From positions 1-17,683 of the forward strand of contig CACXDP010000262.1 in the NCBI GenBank assembly GCA_902766445.1: a stretch of 17,683 bases of DNA, in the 5' to 3' direction. The notes under the pieces are model-generated. The model was not told the origin of the DNA. It worked only from the letters and a program-made list of their open reading frames with translations, and ran no database searches. Within the stretch, counting starts at the first letter, position 1; every line of letters starts with the position of its first letter. The translations under genes and the position numbers were made by a program. The DNA comes from an uncultured Coriobacteriaceae bacterium. GTDB taxonomy: Bacteria > Actinomycetota > Coriobacteriia > Coriobacteriales > Atopobiaceae. Positions 3,696 through 17,683 of this stretch are shown one piece after another.

Positions 3696-4676
3696 CTACC
3701 CGAACTTCTGCTTGAGCTCGGCGAAACTCACACGACTGTCCATCTCGCGTATAGCCACACGTCCTTCGAGCACGGCAAAGAGGAACGCCGCGATATGCTC
3801 GATGGTGAGGTCAGCCGACTGACTACCGTCAGCCTTGTTAAGCGCGTATGTCCGCAGGAGCTGGGTGCTCAGCGCCCCTGCCGATATCAGGAAATGGTTC
3901 TCCAGCTTTGTCGGGTCCGCGAGATCCGAGGCTAGGACGCGCGTCGCCACCGAATAACTGTTTACCAATATATTGGTACCATCGTCATCCACAAGCACGG
4001 TCCGCTGCGCATCAGCATCGAGGTCCATGCGGATGCGTCCGCTCTCGGGCGACTCCTCTTCGCCCTTGTAGAGCACGCCGAGGTCAGCCAAGGCAAGGCA
4101 ATGGAGCTCCGCCCCAGGCAGCACCCGCATCGGCTCCACCGAGAAGGCCGTGGGATACAGCAGGTAGTTCACATCATTAAGCTCCGTCTCTGGAGCATGG
4201 AAGGTGCCCACCATCACATGCGACAGATACAGCCTCCTCGACGCAAAGACGCCACCGAGCACAACGCAGCTCTCGAGCTCGACATCCGCCCCGTAGATGC
4301 TGCCTCCCACGTAGCAGTTCTTGAGGCGCACTGACGTGGCATTGATGTCAGCCCCAAAGAGCACACGCCCGTTGGCAACAAACGCCGACACGGTGTCAGC
4401 GCTCGCCACCGCCTTGCGAAACGTGATGGGCTTCGTTGCGTCGGTCTTTACGTGCAGTTCTTTGTTTACGTAGACGGCATTCTTGAACTCGGTGGGTCCA
4501 TCGTCGATCTCGAGCGCCTCCGCGTACACGCCGCCTTCGACCATCACGTTACCGCGCACGCTGACCGATCGCGACAGCTCGCTCGCACGCTCGGGTAGGA
4601 TGCCACCGCGCACGACGCAGTCAGCGAGCCCCACCAAGTTGTCGGTGCCGACCTGCACCTCTTTGAGCTTTGCCAT
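3696..4676 (-). CDS. Beta-helix-type repeat protein, bactofilin-like (function unknown)
   Basis: The start is revised to the ATG at 4674-4676 (MAKLKEVQV...), which is preceded by GAGGAG. The ORF-track start at 4730 lacks an RBS. The protein has repetitive V.G.V/i.G short-strand periodicity (VRGNVMVEGGVYAEALEI...VANGRVLFGADINATSVRLKNCYVGGSIYGADVELESCVVLGGVFAS) typical of beta-helical or bactofilin folds. There are no enzymatic motifs. Confidence 0.6.
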   Translation of the reverse strand: MAKLKEVQVGTDNLVGLADCVVRGGILPERASELSRSVSVRGNVMVEGGVYAEALEIDDGPTEFKNAVYVNKELHVKTDATKPITFRKAVASADTVSAFVANGRVLFGADINATSVRLKNCYVGGSIYGADVELESCVVLGGVFASRRLYLSHVMVGTFHAPETELNDVNYLLYPTAFSVEPMRVLPGAELHCLALADLGVLYKGEEESPESGRIRMDLDADAQRTVLVDDDGTNILVNSYSVATRVLASDLADPTKLENHFLISAGALSTQLLRTYALNKADGSQSADLTIEHIAAFLFAVLEGRVAIREMDSRVSFAELKQKFG

Positions 4677-4744
4677 GCCACTCCTCTCACTTTCTCGACG
4701 GGCCTGCCCCTGAACTCGGCGGAATATCAAAGCCGAAGCCGAGC

Positions 4745-5761
4745 CTACCCAGCAGCGTAAAGCTGCCCAATCAACGCCGCGACCCGTTCGTCACCCCCAC
4801 CGGCAGCATAGTCCGCAAGCCGCCTCTGAAAGCCTTGATCCACTTCAGCCTTATCTGTCTGCGCCGAACGCTGCCACTGCGCATCGGGTATGTGTGCCAC
4901 ACGAGCAGCCACACCTTCGGTAAGCACGCCACCCTGTCCATCTGACACCTCGTACACCCTCGTGTGCGGTTCTCCCCCGGCAAGGTCGCGCTCGCGCGCC
5001 ACGATGACCGGAACAAACACGATCCCTCCGCTAGGATCGTCCACCATGATGCCATCGACTGCCTCCGCATAGTCGCCCAAGTAGCCACAGACCTCGGCAA
5101 GACTTTCCAGCGACTCGGCAGCTCGACGCTTTGCTTGCGCGCACTGGAGCTTGAGCTGAGCTGTGCTCGTCTCCTCGCCCTCCGTTAGCGTCCGAGCCGC
5201 CTCGCGCACATAGGGTCCTGTCACCACATCCCGCATGGCATGCAGGGCGATGTTGTGCGCAGAACGGTCCAGCTCGCACACCCTACGCTCGAGCTCGTCG
5301 TCCAACCTTCCAAAGATGCGCAGGTAACGGGCCCTAATCGCAGCGTAGTCAGAAGCCATCTGACGATGTACCTGCTCTACCTGCTGTGCCTCATGCGCAA
5401 GCAATCCCGCACTCGAGCGCATGCTACTCGAGAACTCCGAAACGCTCGTCGACATCTCGCTGGCGAGCACTCGAAAGAACCCATGTGTCGCGGATTGCGA
5501 TATCTCCTCCCCAGCGCGCATCACCTCGGCGACCTGAGCTGCCTCCATGGCCGTGAGGGCACCGGTCACCACACCAAGCGCGGCGTTCGTCCCTGCCACA
5601 CTCCGGTCGAAGTCATCGGTGTCGACATGGATGTGAATGTGCACCGGTACGTCACCGGAATAATGCACTGTCTGCGTCCCGCCGTGCTCACTGGCGGGGT
5701 AGGACACCGTCTTTGAGCCGCTGTAGTGGATCGTCTCTGAGTACGACTCCGTGTAGCTCAC
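4745..5761 (-). CDS. Uncharacterized coiled-coil protein, paralogue 2 of a tandem pair, with a His/Tyr/Ser-rich N-terminal extension
   Basis: The GTG start overlaps the upstream stop (GTGA). The protein is homologous along its length to the upstream 303-aa protein. Matching blocks are VDTDDFDRSV..ALGVVTGALTAMEAAQV, IRARYLRIFGRLDDELERRVCELDR, VFVPVIVARERD and a DERVAALIGQLYAAG tail. The N-terminus MSYTESYSETIHYSGSKTVSYPASEHGGTQTVHYSGDVPVHIHIHV is unique to this copy. Confidence 0.7.
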   Translation of the reverse strand: MSYTESYSETIHYSGSKTVSYPASEHGGTQTVHYSGDVPVHIHIHVDTDDFDRSVAGTNAALGVVTGALTAMEAAQVAEVMRAGEEISQSATHGFFRVLASEMSTSVSEFSSSMRSSAGLLAHEAQQVEQVHRQMASDYAAIRARYLRIFGRLDDELERRVCELDRSAHNIALHAMRDVVTGPYVREAARTLTEGEETSTAQLKLQCAQAKRRAAESLESLAEVCGYLGDYAEAVDGIMVDDPSGGIVFVPVIVARERDLAGGEPHTRVYEVSDGQGGVLTEGVAARVAHIPDAQWQRSAQTDKAEVDQGFQRRLADYAAGGGDERVAALIGQLYAAG

Positions 5762-6669
5762 CTGCCGCCACCCCCTACGCCCGCGTCAAAGAGGCCCTGC
5801 ATGGTCTGTGCCACACGTTCGTCCACACCGCTCGTCGCCAACTTGCGCGCAAACGAAGCGCGCACCGATGCGACCTCCTGTCCGTTTGCGCCTCGCAGGT
5901 CCTGCTGCCGACGACGTACACTCTGGGCAACGCTCGCTTGCGTCTGCGGCGAAAGAAACTCGGGGGTGTGAACCTCAAACGCATAGTTGTCCGGCGTGAC
6001 CTGATTCTCCGTCACGGCGTAGACCACAGGAACGAAGCTCACCGATTCTCCCGCCGTATGCCGCTCAAAGACGTTCCTGGTCGTGCGACCATAGTCCATG
6101 ATGCTGCGGGCCCCTTGACCCAGCTCGCTCAACGAGTCTTCCACGCGCGCCTTCGTCCTTGCGCACGACGCCTTGAGTGCAACGACAGACGTGTCACTCG
6201 CATAGAAGAGCGCCGCAGGGGCTTCTTGGCACCGACGCGCCGCGAGCACGCTCTGCCGCGCGGAGGCGAGTTCCATGGCAGGGCGATCGAGATCCTCGAT
6301 GCGCTTCCTGAGGCTGCGATCAAGACGGTCGAAGAGCTTGAGATAGCGGGCCTTTATTCGGTTGAAGTCGCCAAGCATCTGCTGGTGCGTGTGGTCGATG
6401 GCCTGGGAGGTTTCCATCATCGAGCCACTCCGGCTGCTCATGGTACTCGTGAACTTGGCAACCCGCTGGCTCAGGCGTGTGCGCATGAGCAGGTAGAAGC
6501 CCCCGTCGATGCTCTGGCAGATCTTTTCCGTCGCCTTGCGCTCCGAGGCGATGACTGCCGCTTCCATAGCCGAGACAGCCGTCCCCACGACGGCGACGTT
6601 GCTGCTCACGTCATCCAAGCTGCGCGCCATCGGCCGCGTGTCGACGTTGAAGTTAAACGTAGCCATCAT
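5758..6669 (-). CDS. Uncharacterized coiled-coil protein, paralogue 1 of a tandem pair
   Basis: The ATG start overlaps the upstream stop (ATGA). It shares blocks with the downstream paralogue: FNVDTRPMARSLDDVSSNVAVVGTAVSAMEAAVIASE, IKARYLKLFDRLDRSLRKRIEDLDR, VSFVPVVYAVTENQ and DERVAQTMQGLFDAG. I do not recognise a known family. Confidence 0.7.
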   Translation of the reverse strand: MMATFNFNVDTRPMARSLDDVSSNVAVVGTAVSAMEAAVIASERKATEKICQSIDGGFYLLMRTRLSQRVAKFTSTMSSRSGSMMETSQAIDHTHQQMLGDFNRIKARYLKLFDRLDRSLRKRIEDLDRPAMELASARQSVLAARRCQEAPAALFYASDTSVVALKASCARTKARVEDSLSELGQGARSIMDYGRTTRNVFERHTAGESVSFVPVVYAVTENQVTPDNYAFEVHTPEFLSPQTQASVAQSVRRRQQDLRGANGQEVASVRASFARKLATSGVDERVAQTMQGLFDAGVGGGGR

Positions 6670-8618
6670 GCACCAGCCCTCTGGCCATACCCTTGGCCGG
6701 ACTCATCCATGAGCGCACGAATCTCATTCTCAGCCCGTGCGCTGAGGTTGATAGCGAAGTCGCGATCGAGGTCTTCGGACACGTTTGGCTCAGGCGGGAT
6801 GTCACCATGCTGCGCCAGATACGCCCCCACCGTCGCGAGCCTTCGCCGACGTGCATCGAGTTCACGCACTGCCGCAATGGCGCGTGCATTCTCGCGAGCT
6901 TGATAGTCACGCAAGGAGGCCTCGTAATACTCCACGTGTCCAAACTGCTCCGCGCACTGGTCGATGTCTGCGCGAATGCCCTCCATGAATTGCGTGAACT
7001 CCTCCTGCTTCGCCCGGGCTTGGTTGGTCTGGAGCTGGAACCCGGCGATGACCTCGGCTTGGTTCTTGGCCTCGGCGACTTCAGCATCCTCCAGATTTCC
7101 CGTCGCCTTCATGCTCTTGAACGCGGCGCTCTGCTGCTCGTAGTTGATGTGAGCCTCCACGAACTCAGCGTAGGCCTCGTTCATGCGTTGGATGAGCTCG
7201 TTGGCCTCCGCGCGATTGCGGCCAAAGAAGTCGTCAGTGTCGCGATGCCACTGATTGAGATAGTCCGTCTTTTGGTTCGCGATGTCGCTATAGATGCGTA
7301 GGCGCTCGGTGCGATGCTCCTCCATGAGGTTTGCAATCACGGGCATGAGCACCTCGGCGTCCACCTGATGCATCCCGAAGGGCAGGGCCGTGCGGGCGCC
7401 GTTGTCGGCCACCCAGGCGTCAGCAAAGATGTCATAGCGCACGCGCGAGCTTTCCTTGAGCGAGAAGGGCCGCCACTCGCTCGCCTCGTCGGAGTAGTTG
7501 AAGGTTGCCTCGCGGATTCGCTCGATCTCGGCCGCTTCCAGCGCGGGTGAATACTGATTGTAGGAAGCTTTGAGGACATTCTGCAAGATGTGGGAGGTAT
7601 ACCCGACGAGCTGCGACATGCTCGCCGTGCGCGAGCGCGACACGAGGTCGACGCCCTGTGCAAGCTGACGCATCACATTGCAGAAGAAGCCCACGTCACC
7701 GCTACCGTCTTGGGCAGATTGCGCGTTAAGCTTACCCATCGAGGAGAACTCCTCGACCTTGCGCTGAGCATCGCGCGTGTCAAAAACGGGAATGATAGGA
7801 TGACCCTGCGGATCGCTCGTGCCGTATTCAGCGAGCAGGCGGTAGCGCTCACTGCCGGGTGGAACAACGGGCATGCTCAGCGAGACCCTGCGGTTGTCGC
7901 CAATCAGATAGCTCAGCTCGCGGACCTTACGGTCAACCGTACCCATGTAGTCATGCAGCGTGACGTCTTGAAGCGAGGTGGAATAGTCCGAGGTGTCCAC
8001 GACCTCTACCACATCGTTTGATTCGACGCCTGGCATGGCCTGCATCTGACTGGCAAGACCATCCATGGCGTTCTTTAGCTCGTCGGGCTGGTTGATAAGG
8101 GTGAGCGTGAAGTCCGTCTCTGGCTGATCACCGGTGAAGTCCACCACGTAACTCTTGTCCCCCATGCCTACACGTCGCGCCACGGGAACGTAGGCAACAC
8201 CGATGCGGTCAACGCGATAGTCACGACGGATGCCTTGCCATTCCTCCTGCAGCTGAGCCAGACGCTGGTCGCATTCGAGGACCTTGGCCGTTTCGGCCTT
8301 TTGGGTGGCATACTGCCTGTAAGCGATGATCGCACCAGCAGCGAGGGCAACAATCGCAAGGATAGGAACGCCGGCGATCAGAGTTACCAGCGCGCATGCA
8401 CACCCCACGACAGCAGCGATGATGACCTGCTTACCGGTCGCATCAGCCTTGGCTGTCGCCTCCTGGCGCTGCTCGCCCACAGAGGCAATCTCCTGCTCGA
8501 TGCGCGTCTCTTCGGCCACTATTCTTTCTGCCGCCTGGCGATAGTAATCAAAGAGTATCTGAGCTTGGTCCTCGTAGATGTCGGACGATTCCTCGAATAC
8601 CCTGCCCGTTGTCGTCAT
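6666..8618 (-). CDS. Large uncharacterized protein (650 aa) with an N-proximal transmembrane hairpin and a long cytoplasmic or extracytoplasmic domain
   Basis: An RBS (GAGAGGAG) lies 7 nt upstream of the ATG at 8616-8618. A hydrophobic segment VIIAAVVGCACALVTLIAGVPILAIVALAAGAIIAY of about 38 aa gives two TM helices. It is flanked by charged coiled-coil-like sequence. There are no P-loop or other catalytic motifs. The C-terminal third is Glu/Ala/Gln/Arg-rich helical sequence. Confidence 0.75.
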   Translation of the reverse strand: MTTTGRVFEESSDIYEDQAQILFDYYRQAAERIVAEETRIEQEIASVGEQRQEATAKADATGKQVIIAAVVGCACALVTLIAGVPILAIVALAAGAIIAYRQYATQKAETAKVLECDQRLAQLQEEWQGIRRDYRVDRIGVAYVPVARRVGMGDKSYVVDFTGDQPETDFTLTLINQPDELKNAMDGLASQMQAMPGVESNDVVEVVDTSDYSTSLQDVTLHDYMGTVDRKVRELSYLIGDNRRVSLSMPVVPPGSERYRLLAEYGTSDPQGHPIIPVFDTRDAQRKVEEFSSMGKLNAQSAQDGSGDVGFFCNVMRQLAQGVDLVSRSRTASMSQLVGYTSHILQNVLKASYNQYSPALEAAEIERIREATFNYSDEASEWRPFSLKESSRVRYDIFADAWVADNGARTALPFGMHQVDAEVLMPVIANLMEEHRTERLRIYSDIANQKTDYLNQWHRDTDDFFGRNRAEANELIQRMNEAYAEFVEAHINYEQQSAAFKSMKATGNLEDAEVAEAKNQAEVIAGFQLQTNQARAKQEEFTQFMEGIRADIDQCAEQFGHVEYYEASLRDYQARENARAIAAVRELDARRRRLATVGAYLAQHGDIPPEPNVSEDLDRDFAINLSARAENEIRALMDESGQGYGQRAGA

Positions 8619-8710
8619 TGCCCACTCCTCTCGTTACGATCGCATCAGCGGGATCATCATATGCCGCTCGTCCCAGCTTTGACCCCTTCGCACCCACTGC
8701 GGCCATCCCG

Positions 8711-9448
8711 TCAGCTGCGCAGGGAGCGGCGCTGCGCTATGAGCATCAGCACCTCGTCCGCCTCGTCGCAGGCGACCTGCGCCTGGGCGACGCCAAGGTC
8801 CGGTGTCCTCGAAAGCGTCGCCACGAGACCATCAAGCCCTTGCGCAATTCTTTCCTCCAGACGAGCCGCCTCAGCCGTGTGTACGGGCGACGTGTAGCGC
8901 AGCTCCTCGGCGATGCGGTCTACGTATCCCACCAGCTTGGCATTGGCCTCCGACGACGTGTCGAGGCGCGAAGCGCGCAACGCGAGCTGCTCAGACGTCG
9001 CGCGCAGACGGTCTATGGACCCACGCGTGGCGGCCTCCTCGCGCCTCACGTCCTCAATGTGCTCCTCGGCAGCTCTCCCGAGGAAGCACCACATCAGCAG
9101 CACGAACGTCCCAACGAGTTGGGCCACCACCAGAAACTTGAGCGGTGGCGGATACATCGTGTTTGCAAGAACGATGTCGGTGATGGTCAGCGCCGCATAC
9201 AGGCTGACACCGCGCATCGCCATGCCCAACGACACGATGCGACCACCAGTGAGGCGTCCTATCGCGTCGGGTGCCAAGAGCGGAGCAAAGACTACGCCAT
9301 ACAGCGCGACGGCACTCACCGTCGTAAAGAGCGCCACCGACGAACCCTCCCGCCCATAGGGCAACAAGAGAAACAAACCCAGTACCAGCACAAAGAGACC
9401 AAAGACAAAGAGCGCGACTCCGAGCACCCCGAGACGACTTCGCGTCAT
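8711..9448 (-). CDS. Integral membrane protein (about 4 TM) with a C-terminal coiled-coil domain
   Basis: A strong RBS (GGAAGGAG) lies 5 nt upstream of the ATG at 9446-9448. The N-terminal hydrophobic helices are LGVLGVALFVFGLFVLVLGLFLLL, VALFTTVSAVALYGVVFAPLLA, VSLYAALTITDIVLA and FLVVAQLVGTFVLLMWCFL. They are followed by an Arg/Glu/Ala-rich helical tail. The gene lies 21 nt downstream of the SPFH gene stop. Confidence 0.75.
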   Translation of the reverse strand: MTRSRLGVLGVALFVFGLFVLVLGLFLLLPYGREGSSVALFTTVSAVALYGVVFAPLLAPDAIGRLTGGRIVSLGMAMRGVSLYAALTITDIVLANTMYPPPLKFLVVAQLVGTFVLLMWCFLGRAAEEHIEDVRREEAATRGSIDRLRATSEQLALRASRLDTSSEANAKLVGYVDRIAEELRYTSPVHTAEAARLEERIAQGLDGLVATLSRTPDLGVAQAQVACDEADEVLMLIAQRRSLRS

Positions 9449-9469: not shown

Positions 9470-10825
9470 CTACTGTCCAAGCTTCTTGCCACACTGCGGA
9501 CAGAACTTCGTCCCGGGCGGCACCTGCGCATGACAGCGCGGGCACTCGGTGTCGGCGCCCAAATTGCGCGCAGATGCGAGCTGCGCCCCACAGGTAACAC
9601 AGCGATGGGCGTTTGTCTGATTGTCGGAGCCGCACACCGGGCAGGGGTTGTATTCGTGGCCGCAGTTGGGGCAGAAGCGTGACGAAGCGTCAAAGGTCCT
9701 TCCGCAGTTCGCACAGAACACCTGCCGTCGCTGCGCACCGCCTCCCGAGGCGTACCCGCCACCCGCTACAGGCATCTGGTCGTTTCCCGGACCGGCACCG
9801 TAGCCGGCGCGACCTGCAACGAACCCGCGACTGCCGCCCATGTCGTTGGCATATCCACCTCGTCCTTGTTGGCCATAGCCTTCGGCCTGGCCGAAGCCGC
9901 CGAAGCCCATTGCGTCCTGCCGTCCATACCCTGGCCCAGCATTGAAGCCGTACTGACCAGGTTGCTGCATCATCCCGGCACCGAGGCCACCACCAGCTCC
10001 CCCACCGGAGAACATGCCTCCCATCATCGCCATGCCCAGGATTCCCATGTCAGACCCCGACTCCATCGCCGCGCGCGCCGTATCGAAAGACTGACGTTGC
10101 TGCCAGGTATAGCCCGCGATGTTTTGCGTACTACGGTCGGCAAGGGCTTCGGCAATCCTGCGCCCCGACTCCGAGGAGGTATCCACGTCGATAGAGGTGA
10201 TGTAAAAGCCCGTGAGCTCGAGGCCGTATTCGTCCCAGAATTCAGCCATCGGTTGGCTGATGAAGTTGCTCAGCTGGTCTAGCTGCATGGCAATCTGTGT
10301 GATGCCCACGCGATTGGCCGTCATGTACGACGCGATGACACTGTTTGTCTTTGACGTGAGCGGACCCATGAAGTGGTCCGTGAGATCTGACGCAGTGAAC
10401 TCGCGCATGGTGCCGATGAGCTTAACGAGGAACTTCTCCGCGTCACGCACCTTGACGCCGTAGCGACCAGTAGCGCAGATGGGCACCATGGCACCATAGT
10501 CGGGATCCATGATGCGCATGGAATTCGTGCGCCAGTCGATGGTAAGCGGCATGGCTTTGTTCACGAACCAGACCTCGGCAAAGAACGGATTCGTGCCACC
10601 AAACGGAATGCCATAGAGCTTGCGTAGAATGGGCAGGTTCTCAGTGGTAAGGCGATGCTTTCCGGGTCCGAACTTCCCCAGAATCTGCCCCTTCGAGAAG
10701 AATACCGCCTCCTGCGACTCACGCACGACAAGCTGCGTGGCCGTGCTGAGGTTGGACTCTGGATAGCGCCACGCATATACGTTGTTGCCGCGCGGCGACC
10801 ACTCGACGACATCAATGATGGCCAT
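9470..10825 (-). CDS. SPFH/band-7 (stomatin-prohibitin-flotillin) family protein, COG4260-like, with a Gly/Met/Gln-rich linker and a triple C-terminal zinc ribbon
   Basis: The start is revised to the ATG at 10823-10825 (MAIIDVVEW...), which is preceded by AAAGGGGAAG. The N-terminal domain shows the conserved SPFH/COG4260 block (NVYAWRYPESNLSTATQLVVRESQEAVFFSKGQILGKFGPGKHRLTTENLPIL...). A low-complexity GGMFSGGGAGGGLGAGMMQQPGQYGFNAGPGYG region follows. The C-terminus carries three CxxC...CxxC ribbons (CANC..CPNC, CPVC..CVTC, CPRC..CPQC). Confidence 0.85.
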   Translation of the reverse strand: MAIIDVVEWSPRGNNVYAWRYPESNLSTATQLVVRESQEAVFFSKGQILGKFGPGKHRLTTENLPILRKLYGIPFGGTNPFFAEVWFVNKAMPLTIDWRTNSMRIMDPDYGAMVPICATGRYGVKVRDAEKFLVKLIGTMREFTASDLTDHFMGPLTSKTNSVIASYMTANRVGITQIAMQLDQLSNFISQPMAEFWDEYGLELTGFYITSIDVDTSSESGRRIAEALADRSTQNIAGYTWQQRQSFDTARAAMESGSDMGILGMAMMGGMFSGGGAGGGLGAGMMQQPGQYGFNAGPGYGRQDAMGFGGFGQAEGYGQQGRGGYANDMGGSRGFVAGRAGYGAGPGNDQMPVAGGGYASGGGAQRRQVFCANCGRTFDASSRFCPNCGHEYNPCPVCGSDNQTNAHRCVTCGAQLASARNLGADTECPRCHAQVPPGTKFCPQCGKKLGQ

Positions 10826-10865
10826 GTCTTCCCCTTTCCAGCGAGTGACGACTGCCTGCCTCTTC

Positions 10866-10874
10866 GTGCACTCC
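10866..10874 (-). promoter_or_regulatory. Candidate extended -10 element (TGcTACAAT on the minus strand) about 35 nt upstream of the SPFH start
   Basis: The minus-strand reading ...gtactgcTACAATgggag... corresponds to plus-strand attgtagca at 10866-10874. No convincing -35 is present, consistent with an extended -10 promoter. It would drive the minus-strand gene string. Confidence 0.25.
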
Positions 10875-11100
10875 CATTGTAGCAGTACGCACGCCATCCG
10901 TTTTGCATATGACGTTAACGGAGAACGTGCAGTATCTGTGCCACTCGACCTTGTCTGAAAGGCACGTCGTGGGGCGAATAGAGCGCTCCTAGCCTCCCGA
11001 TACCACTACCCACCTGAGAAGCGTCCTCCTTGACCGCCTTCGATATGGTTCAGCTGCAGCTGGCAGCCCTCCATTCCCCGCTGGCCTCATCTGATAGTGA

Positions 11101-11801: not shown

Positions 11802-13478
11802 CTACCTGCGCGTGCCGAAGATGCCGCGTAGAATCTGCCTGCTCGCCTCGCGCCCAATGGTACCCACCACGCTGGTGACCACGGTGTTCGTCACGCGGTC
11901 GCGGGCGCGCTTGGCCTCTGCCTCCTTGCGCTCGGCTTCCTTCTCGGCCTTGAGGCGCAGGCGATCCGCCTCCTTCTCGGCTTTCAAGCGCAGACGCTCC
12001 TCTTCCTTCTCGGCTTTCAGGCGCAGCCTCTCGGCCTCTCTGGCCTCGGCAGCGGCCCTTGCAGCGGCCTCCCTATCGGCCTTTGCGGCGGCAGCAGCTT
12101 CCTCCTTGGCCTTTTGCGCCTCGAACGCAGCCTTCTCCTTCTCGAACGCCGCGCGCTCGGCAGCAAGGCGGGCAGCTTCGCTAGCCTCGGCACGCTCTTG
12201 TTCGATGAGCTCGTAGGCGCTCTCGCGGTCATAGGCCTCCTCGTACTTGTTCATGAGCTCGTACTCGTTGGCGATGACGGTGCTTACGATGCCCGCGTCT
12301 GCAGCAGCCATGCGGCACCCAGGGAAGAGCACCTTTGCGCGTTCCACGATGGACGGCTTTCCACTCGCATCGAGGAAGCTCACGAGCGCCTCACCCGTCG
12401 CGACGTCCTGCAGGGCCTGCACGGTGTCGAAGGCAGGATTGGTACGGAAGCTTGCCGCAGCAGCTTTGACTGCGCGCTGCTCGGCCGGAGTGTAGGCGCG
12501 AAGCCCGTGCTGCACGCGGTTGGAGAGCTGGGCCAGCACCTCACCGGGCACATCGGCAGGCGACTGCGTGATGAAGTACACGCCCACGCCCTTGGAGCGA
12601 ATGAGCTTGACGACCTGCACGACCTTGTCGGTGAGCGACTTGGGCATGCCGTTGAAGAGCAGGTGAGCCTCGTCAAAGAAGAACACGAACTTCGGCTTAT
12701 CAGGGTCTCCCACCTCGGGCAAACGCTCAAAGAGCGTCGAGAGCATCCAAAGCAGGAACATCGAGTACACGAGCGGGGTGTTGATGAGACGCGACGCGTT
12801 GAGGATGTTCACATAGCCGCGACCGTTTGCATCGCAGTCAAACCAATCCATGATGTCGAGGTTCGGCTCGCCAAAGAAGATATCACCACCCTGATCCTCC
12901 ACCGCGATGAGCGCGCGCTGAATGGCGCCCACCGACTGGCTGGAGACACGGCCATAGGTAATCTCGTACTCCTTGGAGTGGTCAGCCACGTAGGTGAGCA
13001 TGGCGCGCAGGTCCTTGAGGTCGATCAGCAGCATCTGCAGGTCGTCCGCCACGCGAAAGACGATGTTGAGCACGCCCTTCTGCACCTCGGTGAGGCCCAG
13101 AAGTCGACCCAGCAGCTCAGGCCCCATGTCGGAGATCGTCACGCGCACCGGTATGCCCGCGTCGCCGAGCATGTCCCATATGCGACACGGCGTGCCTTGG
13201 AAGGCGAACTCACGCTCGTCGATGCCAAAGGCCTCCATACGCGTACGCAGCGCGTCCGTGAACTCGCCCGCCTGCGCCATGCCCGTGACGTCGCCCTTGA
13301 CGTCAGCCATAAAGACGGGCACGCCCGCGTCGGAGAAGCCCTCGGCCATGACCTTGAGCGTCACCGTCTTGCCCGTACCTGTGGCGCCTGCAATGAGGCC
13401 GTGTCTGTTTGCTTTGTTGAGCAGCAGGTAGCAGGGGTTGTCACCCTGCGCCATCCAGATGCGATCGTCCTTGAGCAT
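11802..13478 (-). CDS. HerA-like / DUF853-family P-loop ATPase (YjgR-like) with a charged coiled C-terminal repeat region
   Basis: The start is revised to the ATG at 13476-13478 (MLKDDRIWMAQGDNPCYLLLNKANRHGLIAGATGTGKTV...), which is preceded by GAAAGGA. A Walker A motif GATGTGKT is present. A Walker B-like FVFFFDEAHLLF is also present. The C-terminus ...ILRGIFGTRR is typical of DUF853 proteins. Confidence 0.8.
   Translation of the reverse strand: MLKDDRIWMAQGDNPCYLLLNKANRHGLIAGATGTGKTVTLKVMAEGFSDAGVPVFMADVKGDVTGMAQAGEFTDALRTRMEAFGIDEREFAFQGTPCRIWDMLGDAGIPVRVTISDMGPELLGRLLGLTEVQKGVLNIVFRVADDLQMLLIDLKDLRAMLTYVADHSKEYEITYGRVSSQSVGAIQRALIAVEDQGGDIFFGEPNLDIMDWFDCDANGRGYVNILNASRLINTPLVYSMFLLWMLSTLFERLPEVGDPDKPKFVFFFDEAHLLFNGMPKSLTDKVVQVVKLIRSKGVGVYFITQSPADVPGEVLAQLSNRVQHGLRAYTPAEQRAVKAAAASFRTNPAFDTVQALQDVATGEALVSFLDASGKPSIVERAKVLFPGCRMAAADAGIVSTVIANEYELMNKYEEAYDRESAYELIEQERAEASEAARLAAERAAFEKEKAAFEAQKAKEEAAAAAKADREAAARAAAEAREAERLRLKAEKEEERLRLKAEKEADRLRLKAEKEAERKEAEAKRARDRVTNTVVTSVVGTIGREASRQILRGIFGTRR
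11940..12038 (-). repeat. In-frame tandem repeat, 3 x 33 bp, encoding RLRLKAEKExx x3 inside the ATPase C-terminal region
   Basis: The units are at 11940-11972, 11973-12005 and 12006-12038 (cttctcggcYttSaRgcgcag...). A degenerate fourth copy sits immediately upstream at about 11907-11939. Confidence 0.8.
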
Positions 13479-13534
13479 GGGAGTCCTTTCGCCGTGGTTG
13501 CATGCAACGCTCATTGTAGCAATTGAGACATAGG

Positions 13535-13592
13535 GATTCGGGGGACAGTCCCCTGATTCCCCGACGGGAATCAGGGGACTGTCCCCCGAATC
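13535..13592. repeat. Near-perfect inverted repeat (27-nt arms, 4-nt spacer) overlapping the rsmI stop codon and the rsmI/ATPase intergenic region
   Basis: gattcgggggacagtcccctgattccc at 13535-13561 is the reverse complement of gggaatcaggggactgtcccccgaatc at 13566-13592. Each arm also contains its own GGGGGAC.GTCCCCC sub-palindrome. The last 7 codons and the TGA of rsmI lie within the right arm. Confidence 0.85.
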
Positions 13593-14458
13593 ACCAAGTC
13601 GTACACCTCGGAGCGCGACATCGAGAACTCCTGAGCCAAGCGTTTCGCAAGACGACTCTTTGACTCGCCCGAGGCCAGCCCTTCGGCAATCGCATCCTCA
13701 AGTGACCGCGATCCCGCTGTGGGATTGTGGTCACTTGACCACAATCCCACAGCGGGATCGCGGTCATCCTTGCGCGGGCCTTCGACCACAATTACGCACT
13801 CGCCGCGTAGCTCCGGCCTTTCCGCCACCCGACGTGCCAACTCCGGAGCCACGTCGCGCACGACCTCCTCATGCAGTTTGGTAAGCTCGCGCACAAGCGC
13901 CGCACGCCGCGCGGGCATGACCTCGGCCACTGAAGCCAGCGTCGCCGCCACTCGATGCGGTGACTCATAGAAAACGAGCGCCCCCGGCACGAACGCCAAC
14001 TCGCGTAGACGTCGCTCCCGAGCCCCTGACTTGCGCGGTAGGAACCCCTCAAAGAAGAAATGCTCCATAGGAAGTCCCGACGCGACAAGCGCGCAGGTCA
14101 CGGCACTCGGCCCCGGAATCACCTCCACGGGCAAACCCCGTTCGAGCGCCTCGTCCACCAGCTGTTGCCCCGGATCGGAGATTCCCGGCATGCCGGCATC
14201 GGAGACGAACGCCACGCGCTCGCCCAACTCCACACGCTCCATCACGCCCGCGATGCGCGATGCGATGACGTTCTGGTCGCAGCGTACGAGCGACACACGG
14301 ATGTCGAAGCGAGCGAGCAGTCTCGACGTGACGCGTGTGTCTTCGCAGAGCAGCACGTCTGCCCGCCGCAAGGTATCGAGCACACGAGGGGAAGCATCGT
14401 CGAGATTGCCAATGGGCGTGCCCACCATCGAGAGCATACCCGAACCTGCCGCACTCAC
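13571..14458 (-). CDS. rsmI: 16S rRNA (cytidine1402-2'-O)-methyltransferase RsmI (tetrapyrrole-methylase fold)
   Basis: The N-terminal GTPIGNLDDASPRVLDTLRRADVLLCEDTRVT matches the RsmI signature (PTPIGNL...EDTRHT in E. coli). The overall length and order of blocks are as in E. coli RsmI. The start overlaps the upstream gene stop by 4 bp. A palindrome-encoded insertion of about 21 aa is in the C-terminal linker. Confidence 0.8.
   Translation of the reverse strand: MSAAGSGMLSMVGTPIGNLDDASPRVLDTLRRADVLLCEDTRVTSRLLARFDIRVSLVRCDQNVIASRIAGVMERVELGERVAFVSDAGMPGISDPGQQLVDEALERGLPVEVIPGPSAVTCALVASGLPMEHFFFEGFLPRKSGARERRLRELAFVPGALVFYESPHRVAATLASVAEVMPARRAALVRELTKLHEEVVRDVAPELARRVAERPELRGECVIVVEGPRKDDRDPAVGLWSSDHNPTAGSRSLEDAIAEGLASGESKSRLAKRLAQEFSMSRSEVYDLVIRGTVP
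13704..13766. repeat. Perfect 63-bp palindrome (30-nt arms, 3-nt spacer) located inside the rsmI coding sequence and translated in frame
   Basis: gaccgcgatcccgctgtgggattgtggtca at 13704-13733 is the exact reverse complement of tgaccacaatcccacagcgggatcgcggtc at 13737-13766. The spacer is ctt at 13734-13736. The element encodes DDRDPAVGLWSSDHNPTAGSRS in RsmI. The ORF track shows mirror-image ORFs on both strands, as expected for a palindrome. Confidence 0.9.
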
Positions 14459-15492
14459 TTGAGCATGCTCCGCTCAAAGCTGGAGAGGGCAACGCGCGAA
14501 TCCCAGCCCGAGAGATGCCCGCTCGTCTTCCACGTCTGAAAGAACCACGCCGGCAAGCCTTCGAACGCAGCGATTTGCTCCGCGCAGTACACGCGCTCGA
14601 GGGCAATGCGTCCCTCAGGCGTCATGAGCGAGTCCGCAAAGGGCAGCGCAGCCGACCAAGCGCCCACCATGACGGGCAGGCCAGTACGCATGGCGCGAGC
14701 AAGCGTCTTTCGCGAACGGGAAATCAGGGTCGCCGCGCCAGCGGGACCGGTGGCATCGATCTGATCGTCATAGTGATACAGGTGGCAATCAAGCCACACA
14801 CCACTATACTTGCGGGTCGCCCCAAACACGCTCCATGCCTTTGGCTGATTGGCATCCGGCAGCACCACGCATGGTCCCTCCCCCGCCGCCTTGCGAATCA
14901 CATCGTATGCCTCACGATAATAGTTGCGCAGCGAATGCAGTGGCACCCCGTCCGAGATGCTGATTAGCCTCTTACGACGCTGCAGAACCGGCTCTTGGGC
15001 AACCTCAATGCCAAACAACGCCGATTCCTGCGCGTAACGAGCGGCAAGGGCGCCCAGAACGGACAGCATGTCCGCGCGATGCCCGCGCCCCGTTGTCAAG
15101 AGCACGTCTTCCTCGCCCCGGGCGCCAGGATTGATTGCCAAGACAAGCAGGACACGCAAGCCGTTGGCCGTTGCCCATGCGAAGGCGTCATCCACCTGTT
15201 CGATGCAACCAACGTAACGTCCCGGGTTTGGCCCTTCCTCGCCGAGCACGTACCACGGTACGGGAAGGCGCACAGCGTTGAATCCCCTGCGTGCGATGAG
15301 CTTGAAATCCGTCTCGGTAACGAAGCTCGAACGATGGTTGCTGATGAGCTCGCGATAGAGGTCATCTCCGAGGACGTCCACGAGGTTTTGTTCCCCCAAG
15401 GATCCCGTCCCCGCAAAAAGCTCAGGTGTCACCCATTGCTCGAGACCGAGCCATCCAGCTAGATTCACGCCATGCAGAGCTTCTGTGGCCAT
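14455..15492 (-). CDS. Glycoside hydrolase family 5 homologue (exo-1,3-beta-glucanase-like), no signal peptide, possibly catalytically degenerate
   Basis: The N-terminal GVNLAGWLGLEQWVTPELF...FVTETDFKLIARRGFNAVRLPVPWY closely follows the GH5 exoglucanase pattern GVNLGGW.VLE.WM.PSLF...ITE.DF..I...G.N.VRIP. There is no N-terminal hydrophobic signal sequence. Confidence 0.7.
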   Translation of the reverse strand: MATEALHGVNLAGWLGLEQWVTPELFAGTGSLGEQNLVDVLGDDLYRELISNHRSSFVTETDFKLIARRGFNAVRLPVPWYVLGEEGPNPGRYVGCIEQVDDAFAWATANGLRVLLVLAINPGARGEEDVLLTTGRGHRADMLSVLGALAARYAQESALFGIEVAQEPVLQRRKRLISISDGVPLHSLRNYYREAYDVIRKAAGEGPCVVLPDANQPKAWSVFGATRKYSGVWLDCHLYHYDDQIDATGPAGAATLISRSRKTLARAMRTGLPVMVGAWSAALPFADSLMTPEGRIALERVYCAEQIAAFEGLPAWFFQTWKTSGHLSGWDSRVALSSFERSMLK

Positions 15493-15566
15493 ATGCGTCC
15501 CCTCTCGTCGGCGCCACCTACCAGTATAGACCTCAGACGGGACGGAATGACGTTCGTTTCAGCAAC

Positions 15567-17231
15567 TTAACTGGTGGCTTCAACGTTCGCGGCGCCACCG
15601 CTGCCGCCACGTCCCCTGCCACCACGACGCCGACGGCGACGCTTGGGAGCATCCGTTGTCTGTCCCTCACCCGTGGCTTGGCTCGCGGTCCGCTGCTGCT
15701 GGGCGCTTTGTCCACCCTTGTCGCCGGGACGACGACGGGGCTTCGGCTGCGTCGATTGGCCCTGACTCTGCCCTTGGCCTTTGCTCTGGCTCTGACCTTG
15801 GCCTTGGCCCTGAGCCTGTGTGTTGGCAGAGCTCGAGCGATGACGACGCCTGCGACGACTCGTGCCACCGGATTCCTTTGGCTGTCCATCAGAGCCACTA
15901 CCTTGCAAAGACCTATCGCGTGCAGCATTTGCCTGGGCGCTACCAGATTGCGTCTCTACGCCTTGCGTACCGGCGGCATCCTGGCCTTGGGTCGCACCTG
16001 AACGACGACGACGGCGACGCTTGCTTTGCCCTTCCTCCTGTGAGACCACATCATCCCGCGTAGGCAACGCCTTCGGAGCAAGCCTCTCCGACGTCTCCGT
16101 CGACTGCGCACCGGAGCGTCTGCGGCGACGACGTCTCGCATTGCCCGATGCTTCCGCCTGCTGCTTCTCTACCGCCGGCTCTTGCGCTTCTGATCTACCC
16201 GAGCCATTCGAACCGCCCGAGCGACGGCGACGCTTGCGAGGCTTCGTCTCCGCAAACAAATCCTCCGTCTCGTACTCCTCATCCTTGACCACGCCCATCT
16301 TGCGGTCGAGCTCCGCCAAGGCCATCTGCACGTCAGGAGAACTGAGTTTGTCGAGCGACGAGCGCAGCACCGTGTCGGGACGGCATGGACAGTGCAGCTC
16401 CTCGGACTTCTTGACTGCGGCATCCGAAGTCACCATCTCGCCAAGCGGGATGCATACGGTCTTTCCGTTCTCGATGCGCAGGACCAGCCGCTCCTTGGGC
16501 GTGTCGTACTCGACAATCTTTGCCTTGCCGAGCGGGGTGTCGATGACGGCATTGCGCTTGGGGGCACGACTCTTGAAGTCGCGGTATGCCTCGAACTCGT
16601 AACGCAGACAGCACATGAGTCGACCGCATGCACCGCTGATCTTGTTTGACGTGAGGGGCAGGTCCTGCTCCTTGGCCATGCGTATGGACACCGGCTCGAA
16701 CGAAAGGCCTATGCGCGCGCAGCAAAGCTCCTGTCCGCAGTGGCCGAAGCCGCCCACGACGGCCGCCTCTTCGCGCACGCCGATCTGCCGCATGTCGATG
16801 CGCTCGTGTAACTCATGGGAGAGACTGCGTACGAGCTGACGGAAATCTACGCGTTCGTCAGCCGCAAAATAGCAGACCACGCGTTCCCTGCCAAAGAGGT
16901 ACTCTACGCCGACGGGCTTCATGTCGAGCTCGGACTCCTTGACGAGCCGTCGGAAGGTCGGCATTGCCTCCTCGCCCTTGCGCGCAAGGTCCTCGGCCCG
17001 GACGAAATCACCCTCCGAAGCCACGCGAAGCACGGGCTTGAGCGCAGAGTTGGTCTTGCGTCCGAGGTCAGCACCACTCACCTCGAAGGGGTCTTCCGTA
17101 GCGAGACCTATCTCGGTCCCACGCTCGGTGGAGCAAATCACATGGTCGCCCTCCACCGCGCCGGTCTGACCTGGATCAAACCACAAATCGCGCGCGGCAT
17201 AGGCAAACCTTACCGGTATGACGGTTGCCAT
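15567..17231 (-). CDS. ricT: PSP1-domain protein RicT/YaaT homologue with a roughly 230-aa Arg/Gln/Gly/Ser-rich disordered C-terminal extension
   Basis: The N-terminus MATVIPVRFAYAARDLWFDPGQTGAVEGDHVICSTERGTEIG matches YaaT (VIGVRFKKAGKIYYFDP...). A cysteine cluster GHCGQELCCARIG...GACGRLMCCLRYE is present. The C-terminal half has six poly-Arg tracts (RRRRRR) and QGQGQ runs. The gene lies immediately downstream of a delta-prime-like gene, as in the Firmicutes holB-yaaT synteny. Confidence 0.8.
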   Translation of the reverse strand: MATVIPVRFAYAARDLWFDPGQTGAVEGDHVICSTERGTEIGLATEDPFEVSGADLGRKTNSALKPVLRVASEGDFVRAEDLARKGEEAMPTFRRLVKESELDMKPVGVEYLFGRERVVCYFAADERVDFRQLVRSLSHELHERIDMRQIGVREEAAVVGGFGHCGQELCCARIGLSFEPVSIRMAKEQDLPLTSNKISGACGRLMCCLRYEFEAYRDFKSRAPKRNAVIDTPLGKAKIVEYDTPKERLVLRIENGKTVCIPLGEMVTSDAAVKKSEELHCPCRPDTVLRSSLDKLSSPDVQMALAELDRKMGVVKDEEYETEDLFAETKPRKRRRRSGGSNGSGRSEAQEPAVEKQQAEASGNARRRRRRRSGAQSTETSERLAPKALPTRDDVVSQEEGQSKRRRRRRSGATQGQDAAGTQGVETQSGSAQANAARDRSLQGSGSDGQPKESGGTSRRRRRHRSSSANTQAQGQGQGQSQSKGQGQSQGQSTQPKPRRRPGDKGGQSAQQQRTASQATGEGQTTDAPKRRRRRRGGRGRGGSGGAANVEATS

Positions 17232-17683
17232 TCGAGTGCCTCCTTGACACAGAGAAGCATGACCTCGAGGGCCAGCTGAGGTGTTACGTTATGGGCAAGG
17301 TCGCTCGAGGCCGCGTGGCACGCCTCCAAGGCCCGCAGCACGCCTGCAGTCGTCGCGTCATGCGCAATGCGCTCCACCGAAGAGCGCACGTCCTCGTTGA
17401 CGATGGGCTCCAATGCCCCCTCGCAGCAGAGGAGCACGTCACGCAGGAAGGACTCGGCCGCCGCAAGTGCCTCTATCATAGCCGAACGCTCGCGTGCAGA
17501 CAGCTCTCTGCGCACGACATCCTCAAGTCTCTTGAGCATGGCGGGCGTGTAGTAATCCTCTTGACCTTGCGCGCGACGCTTCGTCTCCTCCGAGATGACC
17601 TTATCGCGCTTGAGTGCGGCCTTCCCGCGTTGGCGAAGACCCACCGATATCTGTACTTCTTCCACGAGACCTTGCGCCGCCTG
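17210..17683 (-). CDS. holB: DNA polymerase III delta-prime subunit, C-terminal part (partial; 5' end lies beyond the window)
   Basis: The frame is open to the window edge (QAAQGLVEEVQISVGL...). The C-terminal helical domain carries the NVTPQLALEVMLLCVKEAL motif typical of clamp-loader delta-prime and DnaX domain III. It sits directly upstream of ricT/yaaT with a 22-bp overlap. Confidence 0.55.
   Translation of the reverse strand, partial: QAAQGLVEEVQISVGLRQRGKAALKRDKVISEETKRRAQGQEDYYTPAMLKRLEDVVRRELSARERSAMIEALAAAESFLRDVLLCCEGALEPIVNEDVRSSVERIAHDATTAGVLRALEACHAASSDLAHNVTPQLALEVMLLCVKEALEWQPSYR

What the first reader, a model, noticed from the sequence alone, without database searches (positions are those of the whole stretch)
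14455..15492. Cytoplasmic GH5-like gene with apparently degenerate catalytic motifs inserted into the conserved holB-ricT-rsmI neighbourhood
The protein starts directly with the GH5 exo-beta-1,3-glucanase core (GVNLAGWLGLEQW...) and has no signal peptide. At the position of the conserved acid/base NEP motif it reads QEP (GIEVAQEPV). At the nucleophile G-E-(W/F) position it reads GAW (PVMVGAWSA). If this by-eye alignment is right, it is a catalytically inactive pseudo-glycosidase. It is translationally coupled to rsmI by a 4-bp overlap, in the slot where Firmicutes carry yabA/yabB/yazA.
Basis: inference. Interest (0 to 1): 0.55.

Follow-up and report, generated by a model that had tools for sequence, protein, structure and literature searches.

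The report
Dead GH5 glycosidase homologue upstream of rsmI
This gene encodes a well-conserved cytoplasmic protein that has the fold of a beta-glucan-cutting enzyme but has lost most of its catalytic residues. It sits immediately in front of the ribosomal RNA methyltransferase gene rsmI in every Atopobiaceae and Coriobacteriaceae locus examined, so databases that call it a glucanase or cellulase are very probably wrong.

Summary
Window 14455..15492 (-) encodes a 345-aa GH5 protein with no possible upstream start and no signal peptide. Alignment to solved exo-beta-1,3-glucanases gives QEP for NEP: the Asn is lost and the acid/base Glu167 is kept. The nucleophile reads GAW (Glu to Ala278). Two further losses were missed: the DLH His is Ala119, and the beta8 Trp is Gln319.

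This is a family trait. None of 120 closest homologues has the canonical residue set, whereas all 82 full-length sequences classed as active (all 40% identical or less) have it. The former catalytic columns are among the more variable in Atopobiaceae, yet the gene is under strong purifying selection (omega about 0.03 in close pairs, against 0.08 for rsmI).

The gene lies directly upstream of rsmI in 80/80 Atopobiaceae loci, and also in Collinsella and Coriobacterium. Stop and start overlap in most loci. The degenerate clade is monophyletic. Two members of its catalytically intact sister clade are also fused to rsmI, so the linkage predates the catalytic decay.

Best reading: a conserved pseudo-glycosidase with a non-hydrolytic binding or partner role, co-translated with RsmI. 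Non-catalytic GH5s are known, so this is a new variant of a known kind. Its function is unknown.

The parts
14455..15492 (-). GH5-like pseudo-glycosidase gene, 345 aa, predicted (beta/alpha)8 barrel. Key codons: Arg75, Ala119 (was His), Gln166-Glu167-Pro168 (was Asn-Glu-Pro), His237-x-Tyr239, Ala278 (was nucleophile Glu), Gln319 (was Trp).
   Evidence: ORF. Pfam PF00150. PDB alignments. AF2 model has pLDDT 86.9 and pTM 0.88. Foldseek top hits are 6zb9, 8z2w and Candida Exg. Column statistics.
15493..15566 (-). 74-nt ricT/GH5-like spacer carrying a Shine-Dalgarno-like GAGAGGGGA a few bases before the ATG.
   Evidence: Read directly from the sequence. No consensus promoter or terminator was found here.
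14455..14458 (-). GTGA overlap: the GH5-like stop TGA and the rsmI GTG start. A GGAG sits about 9 nt upstream of the GTG, inside the GH5-like 3' end.
   Evidence: Sequence. The overlap class is conserved: -1 in 46 and -4 in 15 of 84 loci.
13571..14458 (-). rsmI, the 16S rRNA (cytidine1402-2'-O)-methyltransferase. It is the invariant downstream partner of the GH5-like gene.
   Evidence: TIGR00096 at 2.8e-64 and PF00590 at 1.5e-34. Adjacent in 80/80 Atopobiaceae loci. Also adjacent in Collinsella, Coriobacterium, and the P0131, P0129 and P0307 loci.
15567..17231 (-). ricT (yaaT/PSP1), the upstream neighbour. It carries a roughly 300-aa Arg/Gln/Gly-rich low-complexity C-terminal tail.
   Evidence: NF041131 at 4.7e-74 over residues 29-243 and PF04468. 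Upstream of the GH5-like gene in 47/80 loci.
17210..17683 (-). 3' part of holB (DNA polymerase III delta'). The gene runs off the window end.
   Evidence: PF09115 at 1.4e-5 and NF005926 at 1.6e-13.

Best explanation
The gene encodes a cytoplasmic pseudo-glycosidase. It is a folded GH5 (beta/alpha)8 barrel descended from intracellular exo-beta-1,3-glucanase-like enzymes, and it can no longer carry out the canonical retaining hydrolysis. It lacks the nucleophile Glu, the transition-state His, the NEP Asn and the -1-subsite Trp.

It is nevertheless a working protein, kept by strong purifying selection throughout Atopobiaceae and Coriobacteriaceae. It is made as the first cistron of the rsmI transcription unit and is translationally coupled to RsmI.

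Inferred history: an intact cytoplasmic GH5 gene became fixed directly upstream of rsmI in an ancestor of this lineage. That subfamily acquired its own signature residues in the beta4-alpha4 and beta7-alpha7 loops. In the ancestor of Coriobacteriales the sugar-binding and transition-state residues (His, Asn, Trp) were lost. After that the two catalytic Glu became dispensable and were lost separately: the acid/base in Coriobacteriaceae and the nucleophile in crown Atopobiaceae.

Inferred mechanism today: non-hydrolytic binding of a small ligand or a protein partner. It would use the conserved, remodelled loop face of the barrel and the retained subfamily-specific residues.

Shown: the fold, the residue losses, the selection, the gene linkage and the phylogeny. 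Inferred: absence of activity, and the binding or partner role.
For: **Residue mapping.**
- Alignment to 6zb9 and 8z2w gives the residue assignments.
- None of the 120 closest homologues has the canonical set.
- Among the 100 full-length representatives analysed, the 82 classed as active carry R-H-N-E-H-Y-E, and all are 40% identical or less. A few odd, possibly truncated sequences are the exceptions.
- Coriobacteriaceae orthologues read A-D-[S/T]...E.
- Trp319 is Gln in 216/216 clade members against 96% Trp in active homologues.

**Reversal of constraint.** The catalytic columns carry 1.5-2.3 bits of entropy in Atopobiaceae and 0 bits in active homologues. Their +-4 neighbours carry 0.5-0.85 bits.

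**Purifying selection.** Median omega is 0.028 in 179 close pairs, against 0.077 for rsmI. For the window versus L001, dN/dS is 0.195/1.69. There are 56 invariant columns over 68 diverse members.

**Fold.** The AF2 barrel is confident (pLDDT 86.9). Its best structural matches are exo-beta-1,3-glucanases.

**Linkage.** The GH5-like gene precedes rsmI in 80/80 loci, with stop/start overlap in 61/84. The same order is found in Collinsella and C. glomerans, and at the intact P0129 and P0307.

**Phylogeny.** The pseudo clade is supported 100/100. Pseudo plus the intact sister clade is supported 99/100.

**Subfamily signature residues.** Several are shared with the intact sister clade.

**Precedent.** Non-catalytic GH5 lineages are described in PMC3526467.
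Against: - No biochemical data exist. Loss of canonical residues does not prove loss of all catalysis.
- Glu167, His237, Tyr239, Arg75 and Glu18 remain in this particular protein.
- In Coriobacteriaceae the substituted positions are fixed (A, D, S/T, E) rather than drifting. That could mean a new chemistry there, though that sample is dominated by closely related Collinsella.
- The link to rsmI existed while the enzyme was still intact. Gene order therefore says little about the function of the degenerate form.
- I had no access to model coordinates. The statement that clade-specific residues lie on the catalytic face rests on secondary-structure position only.
- The C-terminal 19 residues are conserved but modelled at pLDDT below 50.
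Confidence: 0.6

Rival explanations
1. It is a dedicated accessory subunit or regulator of RsmI, or more broadly of 30S maturation. Translational coupling yields matched amounts of the two proteins, and the barrel binds RsmI or its substrate. This is a special case of the best explanation.
For: The adjacency is invariant and same-strand, with overlapping stop/start, across two families and a sister clade. In Coriobacteriaceae the cluster continues into metG-ksgA-tatD, a translation-related block. Selection is as strong as or stronger than on rsmI.
Against: The linkage predates the loss of catalysis, so it may be a frozen accident of operon structure. The protein is acidic (median pI 5.9), with no nucleic-acid-binding signature. 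RsmI here has ordinary length and domains.
Confidence: 0.15
2. It is still an enzyme with a non-canonical mechanism or a new substrate. Examples would be Glu167 acting as general base in an inverting or substrate-assisted reaction, a phosphorylase-type reaction with an external nucleophile, or a non-glycosidic reaction in the old pocket.
For: Glu167, His237, Tyr239, Arg75 and Glu18 are retained in this protein. Basal clade members keep both Glu (A-D-E-E-Q). Coriobacteriaceae show fixed rather than drifting substitutions. From general knowledge, GH1 myrosinases work without an acid/base and nucleophile mutants act as glycosynthases. PMC3526467 itself leaves 'alternate mechanisms' open.
Against: Within Atopobiaceae no candidate catalytic position is constant. 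The nucleophile column reads A69/K40/E4/S4/G2/C1. The acid/base column reads E68/D38/A6/N3/S3/Q2. The Asn column reads D/N/H/S/Q/Y and the His column A/G/D/N/S. A Lys at the nucleophile site co-occurs with Asp-Asp/Glu at 166-167 in 37 of 40 cases. That looks like a salt bridge filling the pocket, although the association is confounded by shared ancestry. The stacking Trp and the QNGFDN sugar-binding loop are gone.
Confidence: 0.12
3. The protein itself is functionless. The ORF persists only because rsmI depends on its promoter and on translational coupling, making it a leader cistron.
For: Stop/start overlap with rsmI is the rule. No promoter-like or terminator-like site separates the two genes. 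Catalytic residues have decayed.
Against: A leader ORF needs only to be translated to its end. Here omega is about 0.03, there are 56 invariant residues spread over the whole 345 aa, and length is constant (343-349 aa) at down to 47% identity. These show selection on the folded protein.
Confidence: 0.04

Closest known systems
Bacterial intracellular GH5 exo-beta-1,3-glucanase from the moose rumen microbiome (PDB 6ZB9; inactive variant 6ZB8 E167Q/E295Q; Kalyani et al. 2021, cited in PMC8949617), and fungal GH5_9 exo-glucanases (Candida albicans Exg 1CZ1, Aspergillus oryzae AoBgl 8Z2W)
   Same: Same (beta/alpha)8 fold: Foldseek E 2.8e-25 with TM 0.81, and phmmer 2e-28. Same N-terminal GVNLGGWLxLExW motif, Arg, HxY and acid/base Glu. 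Like the window protein, 6ZB9 has no signal peptide.
   Different: About 25% identity. The window protein lacks the nucleophile Glu, the DLH His, the NEP Asn, the QNGFDNSG loop and the FWT[WY]K Trp. It sits in a housekeeping operon, not a sugar-utilisation context.
Catalytically intact sister clade (P0129, P0305-P0311; unnamed Coriobacteriia-like gut MAGs)
   Same: 38-41% identity to the window protein, and the closest intact relatives (99/100 NJ support for the joint clade). P0129 and P0307 have the same position directly upstream of and overlapping rsmI. Many subfamily signature residues are shared: W80, R139, G182, H186, N190, H240, P292, E293.
   Different: These keep the full R-H-N-E-H-Y-E plus Trp set and are presumably real glycosidases.
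Previously noted non-catalytic GH5 lineages (Aspeborg et al. 2012, PMC3526467): subfamily GH5_30, the Xanthomonas expansin-linked GH5, GH5_8-like lipoproteins, and the Clostridium thermocellum RsgI24C-GH5 carbohydrate biosensor
   Same: GH5 modules with incomplete catalytic machinery that have been retained, presumably for binding or sensing.
   Different: Those are extracellular, lipoprotein or multi-domain proteins from other GH5 subfamilies. This one is a single-domain cytoplasmic protein of the exo-1,3-glucanase-like branch, embedded in the rsmI operon and found across a whole bacterial order.
Clan GH-A and other glycosidase-derived pseudoenzymes (alpha-Klotho KL1/KL2, chitinase-like lectins and XIP-type inhibitors, SLC3 heavy chains, plant BAM4/BAM9). 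This comparison is from general knowledge.
   Same: TIM-barrel glycosidase folds that lost one or both catalytic carboxylates and now act as binding, scaffold or regulatory proteins.
   Different: Eukaryotic and mostly extracellular. No homology beyond fold or clan. No operon context.

Membership tests
Glycoside hydrolase family 5 (sequence/fold family, Pfam PF00150) | Significant match to the family profile and a (beta/alpha)8 fold | tested here: met
   PF00150 at 42.8 bits against a 23.5 cut-off. The AF2 model shows eight beta-alpha units. The Foldseek top 50 are all GH5.
Catalytically competent retaining GH5 | Nucleophile Glu at the end of beta7 (G-E-W/F) | tested here: not met
   Ala278 (GAW) aligned to E295 of 6zb9. 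The column reads A69/K40/E4/S4/G2/C1 in the family.
Catalytically competent retaining GH5 | Acid/base Glu at the end of beta4 within N-E-P | tested here: met
   Glu167 aligned to E167 of 6zb9. It is variable in the family: E68/D38/A6/N3/S3/Q2.
Catalytically competent retaining GH5 | Asn preceding the acid/base (binds the substrate 2-OH) | tested here: not met
   Gln166. The column is 100% Asn in active homologues and D/N/H/S/Q/Y in the clade.
Catalytically competent retaining GH5 | Conserved His after beta3 (DLH) | tested here: not met
   Ala119. It is never His in 216 clade members and is 100% His in active homologues.
Catalytically competent retaining GH5 | Conserved Arg (beta2) and His-x-Tyr (beta6) | tested here: met
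   Arg75 is invariant and His237/Tyr239 are present. Tyr alternates with Phe in the family (77:39).
Catalytically competent retaining GH5 | Conserved Trp on beta8 forming the -1 sugar platform | tested here: not met
   Gln319, where 96% of active homologues have Trp. It is Gln in 216/216 clade members. Equating this column with Candida Exg Trp363 is from memory and was not checked on coordinates.
Exo-beta-1,3-glucanase type (GH5_9 / 6ZB9-like) | GSQNGFDNSG loop after beta3 and the LE-x-W Glu that closes the -1 pocket | tested here: inconclusive
   The loop is not met: it reads NPGARGEEDV, and Q125/N126 are 94% conserved in active homologues but lost here. Glu18 and Trp20 of the LE-x-W motif are retained. 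CAZy subfamily HMMs were not available.
Pseudoenzyme (operational definition) | Homologue of an enzyme family that lacks essential catalytic residues yet is under purifying selection | tested here: met
   Residue losses. Omega is about 0.03. Monophyly of the degenerate clade is 100/100.
Pseudoenzyme (operational definition) | Demonstrated absence of the ancestral activity | not testable with these tools
   Needs a recombinant protein assay.
rsmI operon member | Same strand, no intervening terminator, conserved adjacency and stop/start overlap | tested here: met
   GTGA overlap. Adjacency in 80/80 loci. Overlap in 61/84 loci. No terminator-like site between the genes. Co-transcription itself was not tested.

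The most novel reading that the evidence does not exclude
The barrel is an obligate partner of the 16S rRNA C1402 2'-O-methyltransferase RsmI, or another factor in small-subunit maturation, recruited from a glycosidase. That would be a ribosome-biogenesis accessory protein specific to Coriobacteriales and a bacterial, cytoplasmic counterpart of Klotho-type glycosidase-derived scaffolds. The invariant translationally coupled gene pair does not exclude this, and nothing I could run tests it.
Probability: 0.12. Interest if true: 0.8.

Novelty: new variant of a known kind. Interest (0 to 1): 0.5.

Why it matters
**Annotation.** Public sources label this protein 'glucan 1,3-beta-glucosidase', 'cellulase family glycosylhydrolase' or 'glycoside hydrolase family 5 protein' in Olsenella, Collinsella, Enorma, Fannyhessea and Coriobacterium. 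Counting it as a CAZyme inflates the predicted glycan-degrading capacity of common gut, rumen, oral and vaginal Actinomycetota.

**Evolution.** It offers a clean case of stepwise pseudoenzyme evolution with the intermediates still alive:
- an intact sister clade;
- basal members that keep both Glu;
- one family that lost the acid/base;
- another family that lost the nucleophile.

**Biology.** A protein this conserved, placed in front of rsmI in every locus of the two families examined, has an unknown job in the cell. It is cheap to test.

Tried and rejected
1. **AF2 on a linker-fused GH5-like + RsmI paired alignment** (18 pairs, A2), to look for a confident complex.
2. **Literature searches** for a GH5 pseudoenzyme, for the annotation in Collinsella/Olsenella/Atopobium, and for glycosidases lacking the nucleophile. 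Nothing on this protein was found. The primary 6ZB9 paper is not in the library.
3. **Promoter/terminator scan of 13300-17683**. No site between ricT, the GH5-like gene and rsmI. It is a consensus scan only and is uninformative for this high-GC organism.
4. **Rfam and tRNA scans of the window**. Nothing found.
5. **dN/dS on distant pairs** (dS above 0.5). Rejected as unreliable: apparent omega of 0.3-0.45 for both genes reflects synonymous saturation and codon bias. Only close pairs were used.
6. **First NJ attempt with Biopython's distance calculator** timed out. It was redone with a numpy distance.
7. **Organism of the intact sister clade.** Cluster look-up gave no names. Its MetG is only 57-62% identical to Atopobiaceae and Collinsella MetG. 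It can only be called a deep Coriobacteriia-like lineage.
8. **An alternative nucleophile nearby (Glu293 in TPEGR).** Rejected because that Glu is also conserved in intact homologues.
9. **A basic, RNA-binding surface.** Rejected at the crude level because the clade is acidic, with pI about 5.9.
Full report
**1. What is in the sequence**

The finding's coordinates coincide exactly with a 345-aa ORF on the minus strand, 14455..15492. Translation of the upstream region shows an in-frame stop 22 codons before the ATG, with no other start codon in between. The protein must therefore begin MATEALHGVNLAGWLGLEQW, which is the first beta-strand motif of the exo-glucanase-type GH5 core. No signal peptide can be added.

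A purine-rich GAGAGGGGA precedes the ATG. The stop codon overlaps a GTG that opens the rsmI reading frame (…CTCAAGTGAGTG…).

The flanking genes are:
- RicT (NF041131, 4.7e-74), upstream;
- RsmI (TIGR00096, 2.8e-64), downstream;
- the 3' end of holB, beyond ricT;
- a HerA-like ATPase, beyond rsmI.

**2. Family assignment and residue mapping**

Pfam places the protein in GH5 (PF00150, 42.8 bits against a 23.5 cut-off). The best solved relatives are exo-beta-1,3-glucanases:
- Aspergillus oryzae AoBgl, 8z2w, 6.5e-29;
- the moose-rumen bacterial enzyme, 6zb9, 2e-28;
- Candida and Saccharomyces Exg, about 1e-16.

An AlphaFold2 model built on 68 family members is a confident barrel (pLDDT 86.9, pTM 0.88). 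Its top Foldseek hits are the same enzymes (6zb9, E 2.8e-25, TM 0.81).

The depositors' inactive variant of 6zb9 is E167Q/E295Q, which fixes the two catalytic positions. In the HMMER alignment:

| Query | 6zb9 | Result |
|---|---|---|
| GIEVAQEPV | GIEPINEPV | Asn becomes Gln166; acid/base Glu167 kept |
| PVMVGAWSA | PVVVGEWCI | Nucleophile becomes Ala278 |
| LLVLAINPG | LIDLHTVPM | His becomes Ala119 |

Comparison with many active homologues adds a fourth loss. The Trp of the beta8 motif FWT[YW]K is 96% conserved in active sequences and is Gln319 here. The QNG of the sugar-binding GSQNGFDNSG loop is also gone.

**3. This is a family trait, not a one-off**

A search of 5.8 billion proteins returned 448 hits. 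The best 120 are 54-99% identical, almost all 343-349 aa, and labelled Atopobiaceae, Olsenella or Olegusella where named.

None of the 120 has the canonical R-H-N-E-H-Y-E set. The column counts are:

| Position | Residues seen in the family |
|---|---|
| Nucleophile | A69, K40, E4, S4, G2, C1 |
| Asn of NEP | D64, N20, H10, S7, Q6, Y6 |
| Acid/base | E68, D38, A6, N3, S3, Q2 |
| His of DLH | A58, G20, D16, N12, S8; never His |

The flanking residues, by contrast, are invariant: G277, W279, R75, F317, Q319, W321, K322, T323.

An exhaustive HMMER search of 1.84 billion cluster representatives shows a sharp boundary. Among the 100 full-length representatives I analysed, the 82 classed as active carry the full canonical set and are all 40% identical or less. 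Every sequence at 47% identity or more lacks His119 and Asn166. A handful of odd or possibly truncated sequences fall outside both groups.

Expressed as column entropy, the four catalytic positions carry 1.5-2.3 bits in Atopobiaceae and 0 bits in the much more diverse active set. Their +-4 neighbours carry 0.5-0.85 bits. Constraint has been inverted.

Many active homologues also start directly at the GVNLGGWL core. A cytoplasmic location is therefore normal for this branch and is not a peculiarity of the window protein.

**4. It is not a decaying gene**

Codon alignments of the GH5-like gene and of rsmI were taken from the same 83 loci. For close pairs (dS 0.05-0.5; 179 pairs from 39 loci), median omega is 0.028 for the GH5-like gene and 0.077 for rsmI. 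The window versus its nearest GTDB relative gives dN/dS of 0.195/1.69. More distant pairs are saturated and were discarded.

Fifty-six columns are invariant over 68 diverse members. The protein is therefore under selection at least as strong as its housekeeping neighbour.

**5. Gene neighbourhood**

In all 80 best genome loci, the GH5-like gene is immediately upstream of rsmI on the same strand. These loci cover Olsenella, Atopobium, Fannyhessea vaginae, Parolsenella, Thermophilibacter, Tractidigestivibacter, Kribbibacterium and many MAGs, with identity down to 47%. holB-ricT lies upstream in 47 of them.

With heuristic start calls, the GH5 stop and the rsmI start overlap by 1 nt in 46 loci and by 4 nt in 15 loci, out of 84.

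The Coriobacteriaceae orthologues (Collinsella, Enorma, Coriobacterium glomerans; about 354 aa) have the order GH5-like, rsmI, metG, ksgA, tatD, with unrelated genes upstream. A more divergent degenerate member, P0131, has the same arrangement.

From general knowledge, the B. subtilis order is holB-yaaT-yabA-yabB-yazA-yabC(rsmI)…metS-yabD…ksgA. The conserved partner, however, is rsmI and not ricT.

**6. Phylogeny and order of events**

Coriobacteriaceae orthologues have the signature Ala119, Asp166, Ser/Thr167, Glu278, Gln319. They have lost the acid/base and keep the nucleophile.

The NJ tree used 57 sequences, 323 columns and 100 bootstraps:
- all degenerate sequences form one clade (100/100);
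- its sister is a small clade of catalytically intact proteins, P0129 and P0305-P0311 (own support 93/100; joint support 99/100);
- basal degenerate members still have both Glu (A-D-E-E-Q).

Two intact sister proteins, P0129 and P0307, are also directly upstream of and overlapping rsmI-metG. P0305 and P0306 share contigs with metG. One intact member, P0309, and more distant active homologues, P0139 and P0142, are elsewhere.

The inferred sequence of events is:
1. An intact cytoplasmic GH5 was fixed in front of rsmI.
2. His, Asn and Trp were lost in the Coriobacteriales ancestor.
3. The two Glu were then lost independently in the two families.

Many residues that distinguish the clade from ordinary active homologues are already present in the intact sister clade: W80, R139, G182, H186, N190, H240, P292, E293, R189, R193, R200, R300. 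The subfamily had its own character before catalysis was abandoned.

**7. What it probably does**

The canonical double-displacement mechanism needs the nucleophile Glu. The His, Asn and Trp bind and distort the -1 sugar. All four are missing here.

In the Olsenella subgroup the nucleophile site holds Lys, together with Asp-Asp/Glu at 166-167 in 37 of 40 cases. This suggests a salt bridge in the old pocket, although the statistic is inflated by shared ancestry.

Because no candidate catalytic position is constant across Atopobiaceae, a shared alternative chemistry is unlikely. I therefore commit to a non-hydrolytic, binding-type function of a stable barrel, produced together with RsmI (confidence 0.6).

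Whether the partner is a small molecule, RsmI itself or something else is not determined. The acidic pI (about 5.9) argues against generic RNA binding. The rsmI linkage predates catalytic loss, so it is weak evidence for an RsmI-specific role (0.15). The pure 'leader cistron' idea is contradicted by the selection data (0.04). A non-canonical enzyme remains possible (0.12), more so for the Coriobacteriaceae form, whose substitutions are fixed.

**8. Comparison with the known**

The protein is a GH5 member by sequence and fold. It fails four of the eight defining catalytic and substrate positions, so it should not be filed as a glucan 1,3-beta-glucosidase.

Non-catalytic GH5 lineages have been described: GH5_30, a Xanthomonas expansin-linked group, GH5_8-like lipoproteins and the C. 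thermocellum RsgI24C-GH5 sensor (PMC3526467). All of these are extracellular or multi-domain. I found no description of this cytoplasmic, rsmI-linked clade.

It is therefore a new variant of a known kind, the glycosidase-derived pseudoenzyme.

**9. Verdict**

Interest is moderate (0.5). The case for interest is that the pseudoenzyme is clean, found across two families, currently mis-annotated and has living evolutionary intermediates. Against that, its function is unknown and its class is not new.

Noticed in passing
window 15567-16480 (-), C-terminal half of ricT; tandem repeat at 15756-15813: RicT here is 554 aa. The conserved RicT/PSP1 core ends near residue 250. It is followed by about 300 aa of Arg-runs (RRRRRR), Gln/Gly/Ser repeats (QGQGQSQSKGQGQ) and a 24-nt tandem repeat. 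This is an unusually long disordered, highly basic tail for a RicT.
   Followed up: no
window 13703-13766 (-), inside rsmI: A 33-nt tandem duplication (1.9 copies, 77% match) lies in the linker before the C-terminal helical domain of RsmI. It encodes ...DRDPAVGLWSSDHNPTAGSRS..., which is an insertion relative to the nearest orthologue L001.
   Followed up: partly
window 11802-13514 (-): A HerA-like/DUF853 P-loop ATPase (PF05872, 3.2e-194) lies directly downstream of rsmI, in place of the metG found in Coriobacteriaceae. It has a Glu/Lys/Ala-rich repetitive C-terminal tail (33-nt repeats at 11938-12026). It is present downstream of rsmI in only 16 of 80 related loci.
   Followed up: partly
window 3696-9448 (-): Five consecutive same-strand ORFs (344, 338, 303, 650 and 245 aa) have no Pfam match at E<=0.001. 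They lie between a pentapeptide-repeat protein (3049-3690) and an SPFH/Band-7 protein with double zinc ribbons (9470-10897).
   Followed up: no
window 393-2096 (-): A 567-aa surface protein with a SpaA prealbumin-like domain and an LPXTG cell-wall anchor, i.e. a pilin- or adhesin-like protein.
   Followed up: no
L087 1430-5585 (Collinsella, GCA_025992535.1) versus L086: In one Collinsella genome an integrase/resolvase/HTH cassette sits immediately upstream of the GH5-like gene, where another strain has Tad-pilus genes. The region 5' of the GH5-like-rsmI unit may therefore be an integration hotspot.
   Followed up: no
P0333, P0335, P0338, P0344 (541 aa) and P0121 (573 aa): Some metagenomic gene calls give the pseudo-GH5 a 190-230-aa N-terminal extension. 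These are probably mis-called upstream starts or fusions and were not examined.
   Followed up: no
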